64,000 nt of DNA. Source: Leptonemataceae bacterium. Lineage in GTDB: Bacteria > Spirochaetota > Leptospiria > Leptospirales > Leptonemataceae. Within the stretch, counting starts at the first letter, position 1. Each line of letters starts with the position of its first letter. The stretch spans positions 5,024,001 to 5,088,000 of the forward strand of contig OZ245742.1 in the NCBI GenBank assembly GCA_965227295.1, written 5' to 3'. Of the stretch, positions 55,807 through 58,285 are shown piece by piece. Both the position numbers and the translations under genes were made by a program. The notes beneath the pieces were generated by a model. It made no database searches. It was given only the letters and a program-made list of their open reading frames with translations, and was not told where the DNA came from.

Positions 55807-58285
55807 GTGCGGATTCGCTTGCTGGATTCTTACGAAGAAGACGCCGGGGACTTATGCTTTCCGCCGATGCGGAAAGCCGGCGGTTCAGAAATCTCGCTGA
55901 AGCGAGAATTCTGCCGGTGCGCCTTACCCCGTTCCCCGGCATGGCCTCCGTTCATCTGCTGGAACCAGCCGTGACCGTAAAAGGCTTAATGAACACTGGC
56001 CGCCACTTACTTCGCGATTCGGGGCGTAATCGAACAAATTAAACGTTTTCGCTAGCTCAAGAGCCGCGGTTCTGCGTTTGCCGTGAGATACACAAGGTAA
56101 GTTGCGCAATGGTGAAGGGATTGATTTGGCTACGGCTGAGCGGGAGTTGTGGTGTTTCGTTTTGTTAAGAATGCTGCCAGTGGGGAACCAACTGCCGCGG
56201 CCCCAACAAGTGGGGCCTTGCCGACACCGGACGTCGGTTTGCGACTCAGCGACTATAGCGTCTCCTGCAACGAAGACGCCGTTCCGGTGCGCGCCCCACA
56301 TATCCCCGGCATGACCTCCGACCGTAAGCTGGAACCAGCCGTGACCATAAAAGTCTTAATACAAACTGGCCTCAAATTACATCACGATTCGGGGCGTACT
56401 CGAATGAATAAAACGTTTCCGGTAGCTCAAGAGCTGTGGTTCGCGGCGTTAGTCGTGAGACACACAAGGTAAGCTGCGCAATTGTTAAGGGATTGATCTG
56501 GCTACAGCTGAGCGGGAGTTGTGGTATGTCGTTTTGTTAAGAATGCTGCGTTCGACCCGGACGCGGGTTGTGCGATTCAGCTACCATAGCGTTTTCTACG
56601 GCGAAGACGCCGGGGACTTATGCTTTCCGCCGATGCGGAAATCCGGCGGTTCAGAAATCTCGCTGAAGCGAGAATTCTGCCGGTGCGCCTTACCACGCTC
56701 CCCGGCACAACCTCCGTTCATCTGCTGGAACCAGCCGTAACCATAAAGGCCTTAATGTACACTGTCCGCAACTTACACCACGATTCGGGGCGTACTCGAA
56801 CGAATAAAACTTTCCGGTAGTTCAAGAGCTGCGGTTCGCAGCGGTTGCCGTGAGGAACGTGAAGTAAGTCGTAAAACGTTGGAGGGAATTTTTTGGCTAC
56901 GGCGAAGCGGGAGTTGTGGTTTTTCGTTTTGTTAAGAATACTGCGTTCGACCCGGACGTCGGTTTGTGACTCAGCTACCGGAGCGTTTGCTACGGCGAAG
57001 ACGCCGCTCCGGTGCGCCTTACCACATTCCCCGTCATGACCTCCGTGGTCGCCTGGAACCAGCCGTAACCATAAAGGCCTTAATCTAAACTGGCCTCAAC
57101 TTACGTCACGATCCGGGGCGTGTGCGAACTACCCGAGCGTTTCCGGCAGTTCAAGAGCTGTGGTTCGTTGCGTTTACCGTGAGACACACAAGGTAAGTTG
57201 CGCAAAGGTTAAGGGATTGATTTGCCTACAGCGAAGCGGGAGTTGTGGTGATTCGTTTTGTTAAGATTGTCCGCCTCGACCCGGACGCTGGTTGTGCGGT
57301 TCGGATATCGCAGCGTTTCTTGCGAAGAAGACGCCGGGGACTTATGCTTTCCGCCGATGCGGAAAGCCGGCGGTTCAGAAATCTCGCTGAAGCGAGAATT
57401 CTGCCGGTGCGCCTTACCACACTCCCCGGCACGACCTCCGTGGGAGGGGAACAACTGCCGCGGCCACGACAAGCGTGGCCTTGCCCCTGGAACCGGCCGT
57501 ACCCTTAAAAGCCTTAATACACACTGGCCGCCACTTACACCACGATTCGGGGCGTACTCGAACAAATTAAACGTTTCCGGTAGTTCAAGAGTCGCGGTTC
57601 GTAGCGGTTGCCGTGAGACACACAAGGTAAGCTGCGCAATTGTGAAGGGAATTTTTTGGCTACAGCTGAGCGGGAGTTGTGGTGATTCGTCTTGCTAAGA
57701 ATGCTGCGCTCGACCCGGACGCGGGTTGTGCGATTCAGCTACCATAGCGTTTCCCAGGACGAAGACGCCGGGGACTTATGCTTTCCGCCGATGCGGAAAG
57801 CCGGCGGTTCAGAAATCTCGCTGAAGCGAGAATTCTGCCGGTGCGCCTTACCACGCTCCCCGGCACAACCTCCGTTCATCTGCTGGAACCAGCTGTACCC
57901 ATAAAAGTACTAATCCAAACTGGCCTCAACTTACACCACGATCCGGGACGTACTCGAACGAATAAAACGTTTCCGGTAGTTTAAGCGCCACGGTTCGTAG
58001 CGGTTGCCGTGAGACACACAAGGTAAGTTGCGCAATTGTGAAGGGATTTTTTTGGCTACAGCTGAGCGGGAGTTGTGGATTTTCGTTTTGTTAAGATCGT
58101 CCGCATCGACCCGGACGCTGGTTGTGCGACTCAGCTATCGTAGCGTTTCTTAGGGCGAAGACGCCGGTCCGGTGCGCCTTACCACACTCCCCGGCATGAC
58201 CTCCGTTCATCTGCTGGAACCAGCTGTACCCAAAAAAAAAGCCTTAATCTAAACTGGCCTCAACTTACGTCACGATCCGGGACGT
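55807..58285. repeat. Non-coding tandem array of about 330-bp core units (six full, one partial) with optional hairpin modules
   Basis: Anchor GAAGACGCCG at 55837, 56272, 56603, 56997, 57327, 57761, 58157; periods 435, 331, 394, 330, 434, 396. Confidence 0.92.

What the first reader, a model, noticed from the sequence alone, without database searches (positions are those of the whole stretch)
55807..58285. 2.5-kb non-coding tandem array of about 330-bp units with plug-in modules
Seen: seven anchors with periods 435/331/394/330/434/396, fully explained by a 330-bp core plus or minus module A (+65 bp) and module B (about +40 bp). Cores differ by many substitutions and small indels and share no conserved ORF. 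The array fills the gap between two convergent stop codons (55758, 58291) inside the toxin/TolC locus and is more AT-rich than the coding DNA. It does not fit CRISPR (no repeat-spacer alternation), attC cassettes (no genes) or a simple VNTR. Inference: an array of structured ncRNAs, a tandem of foldback MITE-like elements, or a protein-binding/recombination platform.
Basis: partly seen in the sequence, partly recalled or inferred. Interest (0 to 1): 0.85.

Follow-up and report, generated by a model that had tools for sequence, protein, structure and literature searches.

The report
Largest array of a genome-wide repeat
The 2.5-kb array is real, but it is only the longest of about 120 arrays of a non-coding 330-base modular repeat that fills gene-end gaps all over this one bacterium's genome: an undescribed family of a familiar kind of bacterial repeat, not a locus-specific RNA gene cluster.

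Summary
Between two convergent stop codons lie seven head-to-tail repeats with periods 434/331/394/330/434/396, explained by a 330-bp core plus a 67-nt module A and a roughly 45-nt module B.

The array is not unique. The same unit occurs as about 320 pieces in about 120 same-strand arrays, about 70 kb or 1.2% of the 5.94-Mb genome. This array is the longest.

- **Unit structure:** two modules, X (about 138 nt) and Y (about 191 nt), alternate strictly. A hairpin "head" precedes X in some places. Modules A and B sit at fixed positions in the unit.
- **Location:** arrays lie at gene 3' ends (convergent gaps 52 of 121) and avoid divergent gaps (7 of 121).
- **What the core is not:** it matches no Rfam family, shows no covariation, folds no better than shuffled sequence, has no conserved ORF and is not a foldback.
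- **Distribution:** the family was not found in 155 other genomes of the order. The two congeners hold only an 80-nt piece. The orthologous gap in one congener is a few tens of bases.

My best reading (0.6) is a species-restricted interspersed mosaic repeat, BOX/BrickBuilt/BIME-like in architecture. It was once mobile and is now reshaped by local unequal recombination and short-patch gene conversion. The moving enzyme, transcription and any host function remain unknown.

The parts
55760..55829 (+). 'Head' module: GC-rich imperfect palindrome (stems about 55767-55810) plus GGGGTGCGGATTCGCTTG, directly after the TAG of the upstream gene
   Evidence: Sequence. A 23-nt hairpin core is found 45 times in the genome, 44 of them at arrays and 43 on the array's strand. 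Of the 45, 20 sit at the 5' end of an array, 22 inside one and 3 elsewhere. DNA fold is -15.9 kcal/mol, z -0.9.
55826..56027 (+). X module 0, carrying module A
   Evidence: Alignment; nhmmer piece 55913-56258 begins at model position 24, after module A.
55846..55912 (+). Module A, copy 1 (67 nt, two perfect hairpins). Further copies at 56612-56678, 57336-57402 and 57770-57836
   Evidence: There are 19 copies in the genome, all at the same unit position and on the array strand, 94% alike. z is -4.43 as DNA and -4.06/-3.91 as RNA, with 0 of 200 shuffles folding as well.
56028..56259 (+). Y module 1, carrying module B variant B1 (about 56178-56226)
56260..56590 (+). Plain unit X1 (56260-56397) + Y2 (56398-56590), 331 nt
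   Evidence: nhmmer piece 56261-56589 covers model positions 2-328.
56591..56984 (+). Unit X2 (with module A) + Y3
56985..57314 (+). Plain unit X3 (56985-57121) + Y4 (57122-57314), 330 nt
   Evidence: nhmmer piece 56986-57313 covers model positions 2-328. Folds no better than shuffles on either strand.
57315..57748 (+). Unit X4 (with module A and module B variant B2 at about 57439-57486) + Y5
57749..58144 (+). Unit X5 (with module A) + Y6
58145..58290 (+). Terminal X6. The array ends at the X|Y junction, 5 nt before (or overlapping) the stop codon of the convergent gene
   Evidence: nhmmer piece 58145-58286 covers model positions 1-137. Terminal ends of other arrays are compared.
56129..56153 (+). 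G.U-rich hairpin followed by a T-rich tail inside Y ('module C'). Also at 56501-56525, 57659-57683 and 58056-58078
   Evidence: Terminator-like hits (6 found, against 4.2 +/- 1.9 in shuffles). RNA fold is -9.8 to -11.6 kcal/mol on + and about -1 to -2 on -, but z is only -0.8 to -1.3. The loop is variable and the stem constant in 134 copies.
54829..55758 (+). Upstream flanking gene: TPR-repeat protein, 309 aa
58291..59259 (-). Downstream convergent gene: 322-aa protein with no Pfam family
   Evidence: A homologue in congener G002 lies convergent to a TPR homologue with only a few tens of bases between them.

Best explanation
The array is the longest local pile-up of a non-coding interspersed mosaic repeat family restricted to this species.

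**Shown**
- The family is built from two modules, X (about 138 nt) and Y (about 191 nt). They always lie head to tail on one strand and strictly alternate.
- Arrays can begin or end at either junction, and solo X and solo Y copies exist.
- A hairpin 'head' precedes X in some places.
- Two small hairpin modules, A and B, sit at fixed positions of the unit.
- The family fills about 120 gene-end gaps, about 1.2% of the genome.

**Inferred**
- It is selfish or near-neutral DNA that was spread in the past by an enzyme acting in trans. That enzyme is no longer recognisable.
- It is tolerated because it sits behind genes.
- Arrays grow and shrink by unequal recombination or slippage between neighbouring units.
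- Short-patch gene conversion keeps mixing the copies.
- Module A, and probably B, entered units later in a site-specific way.

It is not a cluster of structured RNA genes and has nothing specifically to do with the neighbouring TolC-type locus.
For: **Dispersal**
- blastn gives 374 HSPs in 101 clusters.
- nhmmer gives 351 pieces, or 317 with the rotated model, totalling 70,567 bp.
- These form 121 same-strand arrays with a median length of 520 bp. This one is the longest at 2374 bp, and the next is 1949 bp.

**Grammar**
- Of 190 transitions between consecutive pieces, 157 are Y-end to X-start. There are 0 X-to-X and 0 Y-to-Y.
- Arrays start and end at both junctions in all four combinations.
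- Solo copies are shown.

**Place**
- Arrays lie in convergent gaps in 52 of 121 cases, against a 19% background (p 1.4e-9).
- They lie in divergent gaps in 7 of 121 cases (p 6e-5) (the gene calls are my own crude ORF caller).
- No flanking gene family recurs.

**Lineage-specific gain**
- The family was not found in 28 of 28 non-congener relatives, nor in the order-wide search of 155 other genomes. That search gave only a 56-nt and a 39-nt hit in G001 and a 20-nt chance hit in G129, with 4 candidates scored per genome.
- Exact 21-mer scans of the species and metagenome collections gave only 7 and 14 single matches. These match nothing beyond 23-36 model positions, at and just around the 21-mer.
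- In congener G002 the same convergent gene pair is separated by a few tens of bases.

**Not RNA or coding:**

**Local duplication:** adjacent units are 85.9% identical, against 81.2% for non-adjacent units in the same array and 79.8% between arrays.

**Mixing among copies**
- Linkage between variable columns falls from r2 0.26 at 3-5 nt to 0.03 at 12-24 nt and to 0.01 or less beyond 100 nt.
- No array is a block copy of another: 0 of 63 adjacent pairs have collinear nearest neighbours.

**Later, site-specific modules**
- All 19 A copies sit at one unit position and are 94% alike. Their host X cores are no more alike (82.3%) than cores without A (81.5-82.1%).
- B1 is found only at site 1 (14 copies) and B2 only at site 2 (12 copies). 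Two hybrids lack the DNA between the sites.

**Independent reads:** depth inside the array is 6-135 times that of the flanks in two runs.
Against: **No transposition hallmarks were found**
- There is no terminal inverted repeat at seed 9, length 20.
- I could define no target-site duplication.
- There is no partner enzyme. Y1 transposase/RAYT and TnpB are absent. The IS91-type search was uninformative because its control rang nowhere.

**No sign of recent movement:** only 15 inter-locus pairs reach 92% identity over 150 nt or more, and the best is 98.0% over 254 nt.

**The sequence does not look like freely decaying junk**
- 122 of 329 columns are at least 95% conserved, while 63 are below 70%.
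- Unit length is held at 325-331 nt.
- Even the 27 closest pairs differ 12 times more often at variable columns (18.6%) than at conserved ones (1.5%).
- Gene conversion can give this pattern, but so can selection on each copy.

**Replication-strand bias:** a modest bias (73 against 48, p 0.03) is unexplained.

**Transcription:** this was not tested, because no RNA run is listed.
Confidence: 0.6

Rival explanations
1. The arrays are host-serving end-of-gene devices. They would act as stacks of transcription terminators or insulators (the head hairpin, plus the Y hairpin with its U-rich tail) that stop read-through and collisions between converging genes.
For: - Arrays sit at gene 3' ends, 52 of 121 in convergent gaps.
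- Each Y carries a hairpin plus T-rich tail that folds only on the + strand as RNA. The mean is -9.4 against -1.4 kcal/mol over 134 copies, with the stem constant and the loop variable, including UUCG-type loops.
- The terminator scan picks it up in 4 units here.
- The only piece shared with the congeners is this part of Y. In G001 it lies directly behind a stop codon.
- Conserved columns stay conserved even in close pairs.
Against: - In co-directional gaps the arrays point either way, 32 with the genes and 30 against (p 0.9). That does not fit a strand-specific terminator.
- The hairpin's energy is ordinary for its composition: z is -0.8 to -1.3, and it has no stable DNA form.
- Terminator-like hits are barely above shuffles, 6 against 4.2 +/- 1.9.
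- A congener manages the same gene pair with a gap of a few tens of bases.
- One hairpin would do the job, so 2.5 kb is unexplained.
Confidence: 0.12
2. The array is a tandem set of small-RNA genes. Each unit would be its own transcription unit, ending at the Y hairpin.
For: - There is a terminator-like hairpin once per unit on one strand.
- All units in an array point the same way.
- 122 of 329 columns are strongly conserved.
Against: - There are 0 sigma-70-like promoters in the array, against 1.1 expected.
- There is no Rfam match.
- There is no conserved structure or covariation upstream of the hairpin.
- Fold z-scores are near 0.
- About 200 gene copies of one sRNA would be without precedent.
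Confidence: 0.07
3. The array is a protein-binding or recombination platform. The invariant blocks would be sites for a nucleoid protein or for an unrecognised site-specific recombinase that adds X, Y, A and B modules at fixed junctions.
For: - Conservation is bimodal, with short invariant blocks such as GAAGACGCCGTTCCGGT and CTGGAACCAG.
- X and Y alternate strictly, and arrays end at two fixed junctions.
- Modules A and B are always at the same positions.
- B-B hybrids have the intervening DNA lost.
- Three of four tyrosine-recombinase genes lie within 1.5 kb of an array (noticed post hoc).
Against: - No protein was identified.
- Two of the three nearby recombinases look like the housekeeping XerC/XerD pair.
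- Arrays occupy so many gaps that proximity is weak evidence.
- No binding data exist.
- B-B deletions are equally expected from ordinary homologous recombination.
Confidence: 0.12
4. The array is an assembly artefact. It would be a repeat collapsed or inflated by the assembler, so that the seven-unit array does not exist as written.
For: - No read or contig spans the array.
- Short-read contigs break about 64 and 34 nt inside it.
- Repeats of this kind are hard to assemble.
Against: - The genome is one 5.94-Mb contig with no N.
- The units at this locus differ from each other by 12-23%, and each has its own module set. They are therefore not interchangeable copies.
- Both junctions are confirmed without mismatches, and the family's high depth is seen in two runs.
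- The same architecture recurs at about 120 loci.
Confidence: 0.03

Closest known systems
BOX elements of Streptococcus pneumoniae (boxA-boxB(n)-boxC); recalled, no paper read here
   Same: - A dispersed, non-coding, intergenic and modular element.
- A middle part repeated in tandem a variable number of times between distinct end modules.
- No transposase of its own.
   Different: - BOX modules are 45-60 nt and the whole element is under 0.4 kb. Here the repeated block is 330 nt and arrays reach 2.4 kb.
- BOX ends are inverted repeats of each other. No such ends were found here.
- There is no sequence similarity.
BrickBuilt, the minisatellite-bearing MITE of Porphyromonas gingivalis (PMC4596501; abstract read)
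   Same: - Species-specific and always intergenic.
- Leader, tandem repeat and tail architecture.
- Tens of loci.
   Different: - BrickBuilt has a 23-nt unit, 19 copies and small inverted-repeat ends, and promoter activity has been shown for it.
- Here the unit is a 330-nt two-module block at about 120 loci. No inverted ends were found, and promoter activity is untested (0 consensus promoters).
REP/BIME and REPIN elements with their RAYT transposases (PMC2817692, PMC3333891 and PMC3116915; only the abstracts in the listing were seen)
   Same: - High-copy extragenic repeats at gene ends, arranged in mosaic clusters of alternating modules.
- They persist for long periods.
- Hairpin-forming sub-modules (here the head, A and B).
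   Different: - REPs are 20-40-nt palindromes that alternate in orientation inside BIMEs and are linked to a Y1 (RAYT) gene.
- Here all modules point one way and the 330-nt core is not palindromic.
- The genome has no Y1 transposase match.
STAR elements of staphylococci (PMC3532100; abstract read)
   Same: - Interspersed intergenic direct repeats.
- Loci differ between species and expand and contract.
- The sequences are maintained with unknown function.
   Different: STAR is a short G+C-rich direct repeat with locus-specific spacers (the repeat-spacer layout is recalled). Here the whole 330 nt is homologous between loci and there are no spacers.
MIRU, mycobacterial interspersed repetitive units (recalled; only typing papers appeared in the listing)
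   Same: Tandem arrays of one unit family dispersed over tens of intergenic loci, with all units in one direction.
   Different: - MIRU units are 40-100 nt.
- They lie inside operons, oriented with the genes.
- They carry short ORFs coupled to the neighbouring genes (recalled).
- Here the units have no ORF, show no orientation preference (32 against 30) and prefer convergent gaps.

Membership tests
REP/BIME-REPIN | A RAYT / Y1 (IS200-type) transposase gene in the genome | tested here: not met
   PF01797 found no match in G000, while the control rang in 6 of 14 genomes. The genome's completeness figure is 93.55%, but it is a single contig.
REP/BIME-REPIN | Short palindromic units that alternate in orientation within a cluster | tested here: not met
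   All pieces of an array are on one strand. The core unit folds no better than shuffles.
MITE (miniature inverted-repeat transposable element) | Terminal inverted repeats | tested here: not met
   The only inverted repeats of 20 nt or more in 55700-58400 are module A's own palindromes. Weak 6-8-nt matches cannot be told from chance.
MITE (miniature inverted-repeat transposable element) | Target-site duplication flanking each insertion | tested here: inconclusive
   The ends of 48 array starts and 43 array ends were listed. The 3' ends are ragged over about 20 nt, and no filled/empty pair from a close strain was available. The congeners are too distant: flanking proteins are 37-50% identical.
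IS200/IS605-derived elements (PATE-like) with omega/reRNA | TnpA(Y1) or TnpB partner, subterminal hairpins, and insertion on the lagging-strand template | tested here: not met
   There are no PF01797 or PF07282 matches. The strand bias is modest and goes the other way: the + strand is on the leading-strand template in 73 of 121 arrays.
Rfam RNA families (structured ncRNA, riboswitch, sRNA) | A match to a curated covariance model, or a conserved structure with covariation | tested here: not met
   There were 0 matches at E<=1. RNAalifold gives -15.7/-11.9 kcal/mol. There is no stacked covariation.
CRISPR array | Short identical repeats alternating with unique spacers | tested here: not met
   The whole 330-nt period is homologous between units and between loci. 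The variable columns are scattered 1-9-nt patches.
Integron cassette array / CALIN | attC sites bounding variable cassette content, usually with ORFs | tested here: not met
   There is no variable cassette content and no ORFs. The arrays lie at about 120 loci. attC models as such were not run.
BOX / BrickBuilt-type modular intergenic element | Distinct end modules around a tandemly repeated middle; dispersed, intergenic and species-restricted | tested here: met
   The layout is head, then alternating X and Y, then a terminal X. It is dispersed and intergenic and species-restricted. This is a likeness of architecture only: there is no homology, and the inverted ends of those families were not found.

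The most novel reading that the evidence does not exclude
The units may not be decaying junk. They may be a selection-maintained system of self-targeting modules.
- X, Y, A and B would each be placed at fixed junctions by a site-specific enzyme that matched none of the transposase or recombinase families searched here.
- Alternatively, the 122 invariant columns are held by selection at each of about 200 copies, because the arrays serve the host at gene ends as stacked terminators or insulators, or as binding platforms.

Either way it would be a bacterial 'satellite' with a 330-nt two-module unit and an unusual way of evolving: free shuffling of short two-state patches.
Probability: 0.15. Interest if true: 0.7.

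Novelty: new variant of a known kind. Interest (0 to 1): 0.4.

Why it matters
As a locus-specific oddity it dissolves. Nothing ties the array to the neighbouring TolC-type genes.

As a family it is a clean and unusually large example of a bacterial interspersed repeat:
- It has a 330-nt two-module unit and arrays up to 2.4 kb.
- It makes up 1.2% of a genome.
- It is confined to one species among those searched.
- Smaller hairpin modules are nested at fixed sites.
- Its variation pattern is invariant blocks plus freely recombining two-state patches, which simple decay of dead transposon copies does not predict.

If strains of this species can be compared or grown, the family offers three things:
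- many parallel loci in which to watch array growth, loss and gene conversion;
- a test of whether such repeats act on transcription at converging gene ends;
- ready-made copy-number markers for typing.

It also warns annotators that long 'unique-looking' intergenic arrays should be checked against the whole genome first.

Tried and rejected
**Structure and coding**
- Rfam search on 55500-58600 and on the congener loci gave nothing.
- Long-range helices suggested by inverted repeats inside a unit are not kept. Only a 6-bp ACTTAC/GTAAGT pair is conserved, without covariation.
- My first covariation screen was too permissive: G.T pairs plus transitions gave 450 spurious pairs. I replaced it with a Fisher test, which left 10 unstacked pairs.
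- Pfam on the five longest ORFs in the array gave none above cut-off.

**Origin and partner enzymes**
- Block copying of arrays is rejected: 0 of 63 collinear.
- A single rolling-circle origin per array is rejected. Non-adjacent units of one array (81.2%) are hardly closer than units of different arrays (79.8%).
- Partner enzymes: Y1_Tnp and TnpB are absent. The Y2_Tnp search is uninformative because its control rang nowhere. The 10 RVT_1 genes and 4 tyrosine recombinases were found but not linked to the repeat.
- No flanking gene family recurs.

**Congeners and public collections**
- The idea that the 80-nt piece marks an orthologous 'birthplace' behind an adenylate-cyclase-like gene was not borne out. 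The downstream gene of G001 has no counterpart at the G000 site, and the two congener loci do not align.
- Modules A and the head were not found in the two congeners.
- Exact 21-mer scans of the genome and metagenome collections gave only chance singletons.

**Reads**
- No RNA holder is listed for this stretch.
- The laid contigs cover the inside of the array only as short multi-copy pieces. Joints with sides of 23-25 nt were disregarded as repeat effects.

**Literature and earlier notes**
- Paper searches for five conserved 12-16-mers of the unit found 3 papers, each with one chance match to a single motif and none on a bacterial repeat.
- Two keyword searches found no description of such a family.
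- The protein atlas on the 322-aa neighbour gave only weak LpoB-like leads.
- Earlier notes of this scan hold nothing for this genome or sequence.

**Not done**
The solos were aligned to each other and to a window stretch instead.
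Full report
**1. The observation**

The stretch 55760-58290 is a head-to-tail repeat array.
- Tandem Repeats Finder reports periods of 329 and 434.
- The repeat finder reports seven copies of a 49-nt block and longer families.
- An alignment of the eight pieces shows a 330-nt core. A 67-nt insertion (module A) is in four units. A roughly 45-nt insertion (module B) is in two units, at two different places of the unit.

Phased at GTTTCTTACGA..GAAGACGCC, the units start at 55826, 56260, 56591, 56985, 57315, 57749 and 58145.

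The array fills the gap between the TAG of a TPR-protein gene (54829-55758, +) and the stop of a convergent 322-aa ORF (58291-59259, -). Its GC content is 54.8%, against 59.4% for the window.

**2. The array is not unique**

A single unit finds 198 or more matches in the window's own genome.
- blastn gives 374 HSPs in 101 clusters, 65.9 kb.
- A profile HMM gives 351 pieces.
- A model rotated to the natural phase gives 317 pieces covering 70,567 bp, about 1.2% of the 5,938,550-bp single-contig genome.

Grouped by strand and proximity, these make 121 arrays with a median length of 520 bp. The window's array is the longest at 2374 bp by model hits, and the next is 1949 bp. No gene family recurs next to the arrays, so the array has no special tie to the TolC-type locus.

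**3. Anatomy**

Where arrays start and end shows that the 330-nt period consists of two modules. X is about 138 nt, running from GAAGACGCCGTTCCGGT to CACGATTCGGGGCGT. Y is about 191 nt.
- Arrays begin at the Y|X junction (50 of 125) or the X|Y junction (38 of 125). They end at either junction, in all four combinations.
- Solo X and solo Y copies exist.
- Inside arrays the modules strictly alternate. Of 190 transitions between consecutive pieces, 157 are Y-end to X-start and none is X-to-X or Y-to-Y.
- The window array reads head, then X, then six Y-X repeats.

The 'head' is a GC-rich imperfect palindrome plus an 18-nt tail. It occurs 45 times, 44 of them at arrays. Of these, 20 are at an array's 5' end and 22 are internal.

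Module A consists of two perfect hairpins. Its z-score is -4.4 as DNA and about -4 as RNA on both strands. It occurs 19 times, always at the same position of X, and the copies are 94% alike.

Module B occurs 28 times in arrays, in two variants with compensatory stem changes.
- B1 is found only at one site in Y (14 copies).
- B2 is found only at one site in X (12 copies).
- Two hybrids lack the DNA between the two sites.

**4. What the core is not**

- **Not coding.** Unit lengths vary between 325 and 331 nt and the consensus has stops in all frames. The five longest ORFs have no Pfam family above cut-off.
- **Not a described RNA.** There are 0 Rfam matches at E<=1.
- **Not a conserved structure.**
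  - RNAalifold on 96 full units gives -15.7 (+) and -11.9 (-) kcal/mol over 329 columns.
  - A unit folds no better than shuffles, z +0.56 and -0.49.
  - A Fisher screen for correlated double changes leaves 10 scattered pairs and no helix.
  - The inverted repeats within a unit are not kept across the family.
- **Not a foldback.** No terminal inverted repeat was found at seed 9 and length 20.

One local feature is a G.U-rich hairpin in Y followed by a T-rich tail.
- It folds only on the + strand as RNA, with a mean of -9.4 against -1.4 kcal/mol in 134 copies.
- Its stem is constant and its loop variable, including UUCG-type loops.
- Its energy is ordinary for its composition, z -0.8 to -1.3.
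- The terminator scan is barely above shuffles, 6 against 4.2 +/- 1.9. No sigma-70-like promoter is found, 0 against 1.1 expected.

**5. Where the arrays sit**

These figures use my own crude ORF-based gene calls (4727 genes).
- 52 of 121 arrays lie between convergent genes, against a 19% background (p 1.4e-9).
- 7 of 121 lie between divergent genes (p 6e-5).
- In co-directional gaps the arrays point with the genes 32 times and against them 30 times.
- Array ends lie close to stop codons. The median is 11 nt to the stop of an opposite-strand downstream gene.
- The repeat's + strand is on the lagging side of replication in 73 of 121 arrays (p 0.03). This bias is modest and unexplained.

This is the usual 'safe haven' pattern of bacterial intergenic repeats. 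The lack of orientation preference speaks against a strand-specific role in terminating the neighbouring genes.

**6. Distribution**

- In 30 relatives, the two same-genus genomes each have a single 73-nt match, and 28 others have none.
- In the order-wide search of 155 other genomes, only G001 (56 and 39 nt) and one 20-nt chance hit appear. Only four candidates per genome were scored.
- The shared piece is about 80 nt of Y, the hairpin region plus TCGACCCGGACG. Diverged solo copies of it also exist in G000.
- An exact 21-mer from the most conserved block finds 7 single matches among the representative genomes of 185,579 species and 14 in the metagenome collection. None extends beyond 23-36 model positions, at and just around the 21-mer. 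Records of the window's own genome may be left out of those scans.
- Modules A and the head were not found in the two congeners.
- In congener G002, homologues of the two flanking genes (50% and 37% identical) lie in the same convergent arrangement with only a few tens of bases between them. The 2.5 kb is therefore a gain in this lineage.
- The congeners are too distant to define insertion boundaries.

**7. How the family evolves**

- Units are on average 79.8% identical between arrays, 81.2% within an array when not adjacent, and 85.9% when adjacent.
- 66 of 96 units have their nearest relative in another array.
- No array is a block copy of another: 0 of 63 adjacent pairs have collinear nearest neighbours.
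- Only 15 inter-locus pairs reach 92% identity over 150 nt or more, and the best is 98.0% over 254 nt. There is no sign of recent spread.
- Conservation is bimodal: 122 of 329 columns are at least 95% conserved and 63 are below 70%, mostly two-state.
- Linkage between variable columns is lost within about 12-25 nt: r2 is 0.26 at 3-5 nt, 0.03 at 12-24 nt, and 0.01 or less beyond 100 nt.
- In the 27 closest pairs, differences fall 12 times more often on variable columns (18.6%) than on conserved ones (1.5%).

Master-copy subfamilies would give long-range linkage. Neutral decay would give even divergence. Neither is seen. Short-patch gene conversion among copies, selection on each copy, or both, would give this pattern.

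Module A copies are much more alike (94%) than their host cores. A-bearing cores are no closer to each other (82.3%) than to A-less cores (81.5%). A was therefore added to different units at the same site, or spread by conversion, later than the cores diverged.

**8. Partner enzymes**

- Y1 (IS200/RAYT) and TnpB families have no match in the genome, while their controls rang.
- The IS91-type search is uninformative, because its control rang nowhere.
- There are 10 reverse-transcriptase genes in identical multi-copy sets, probably group II introns. One is in the window at ORF 4407-5720 (-).
- There are 4 tyrosine recombinases, three within 1.5 kb of an array. Two of those look like XerC/XerD, and the link was noticed post hoc.

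No enzyme can be assigned.

**9. Reality of the assembly**

No RNA run is listed for this stretch. Contigs of two runs from one study, possibly the source sample, match both flanks without mismatches. They run about 64 and 34 nt into the array and stop. Depth inside is 6-135 times the flank depth, as expected for a multi-copy family. The order and number of units at this locus rest on the assembly alone. However, the units differ by 12-23% and each carries its own module set, which makes a simple collapse or inflation unlikely.

**10. Interpretation**

The best-supported reading (0.6) is a species-restricted interspersed mosaic repeat.
- It is selfish or near-neutral DNA that reached about 120 gene-end gaps through a past, unidentified mobilisation.
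- It is now reshaped by unequal recombination between neighbouring units and by short-patch conversion among copies.
- Small hairpin modules were added at fixed sites.

Shown:
- the dispersal, the grammar and the placement;
- the lineage restriction and the lack of RNA structure or coding;
- the similarity and linkage patterns.

Inferred:
- past mobility;
- the recombination and conversion mechanisms;
- the absence of a host function.

The rivals keep some weight because of the invariant blocks, the fixed junctions and the untested transcription. They are a terminator or insulator stack (0.12), tandem sRNA genes (0.07) and a protein-binding or recombination platform (0.12). Assembly artefact is at 0.03.

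**11. Comparison and novelty**

In architecture the family resembles two elements:
- BOX, with boxA-boxB(n)-boxC (recalled);
- BrickBuilt, with a leader, a 23-nt minisatellite and a tail, 19 copies, intergenic and species-specific (PMC4596501, abstract).

In placement and persistence it resembles three others:
- REP/BIME and REPINs (abstracts in the listing);
- STAR (PMC3532100, abstract);
- MIRU (recalled).

It fails the defining tests of REP/BIME (no RAYT, no alternating palindromes), of MITEs (no inverted ends found) and of IS200/605 derivatives. I therefore file it as a new variant of a known kind, not as a member of any named family.

Paper searches for five conserved motifs of the unit and two keyword searches found no description of it. 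The library lacks most subscription journals. Earlier notes of this scan describe the same situation in other phyla: tandem arrays in convergent gaps that turn out to be pile-ups of dispersed repeats. Those are AI notes and I did not test them. Interest: 0.4.

Noticed in passing
G000:C1:5333929-5334342, 4809596-4809924 and 3908442-3908827 (outside the window): There is a second, even more abundant intergenic repeat. It is a GC-rich element of about 110 nt (..GGGCTCCGCTTCGC..) that often occurs as an inverted pair around a short centre. It gives 228-269 blastn HSPs per query. After masking the 330-nt family, 306 intergenic segments still have 5 or more partners. The genome is unusually rich in intergenic repeats.
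   Followed up: partly
L013 1494-1573, L012 1500-1573 (-), L033 1490-1559; G000 solo copies, e.g. C1:3619095-3619171 and 3214630-3214701: An 80-nt piece of module Y is the only part of the repeat shared with the two same-genus genomes. It comprises the G.U-rich hairpin, TCGTTTTG and TCGGCCCGGACG. In G001 it lies directly behind the stop codon of an adenylate-cyclase-like gene. It could be an older genus-wide element from which Y was built.
   Followed up: partly
window 4407-5720 (-): This 437-aa ORF has a reverse-transcriptase (RVT_1) match. It is one of four identical 456-aa open frames and of 10 RVT_1 matches in the genome. They are probably group II introns.
   Followed up: no
window 46344-53909 (-): This 2521-aa ORF next to the TPR and TolC-type genes has no Pfam family at E<=1e-5.
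   Followed up: no
G000:C1:2962888-2963793, 5671707-5672744 and 2989255-2990298: Three of the genome's four tyrosine-recombinase genes lie within 1.5 kb of an array, and one starts 35 nt from an array end. Two look like XerD and XerC. This was noticed post hoc, and with about 120 arrays it may be chance.
   Followed up: partly
G000:C1:3346461 and 4857850 (outside the window): Two units carry a hybrid module B that joins the X site to the Y site, and the roughly 227 nt between the sites is missing. This is what recombination between two B copies within a unit would produce.
   Followed up: no
G000:C1:3451234, 3802143, 4327258 and 5752572: Hairpins like module B (GGGGAACATCTACCGCGGCC..) also occur outside the arrays. 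They are embedded in the GC-rich ..CTCCGCT.. repeat family, so this hairpin module is shared between two repeat families.
   Followed up: no
window 58291-59259 (-): The 322-aa neighbour has no Pfam family. Its nearest protein-atlas clusters are unnamed hypothetical proteins (score 0.92); clusters ranked 4 and 6 carry a weak LpoB-like label at the same score, with the family on only 10-27% of members.
   Followed up: no
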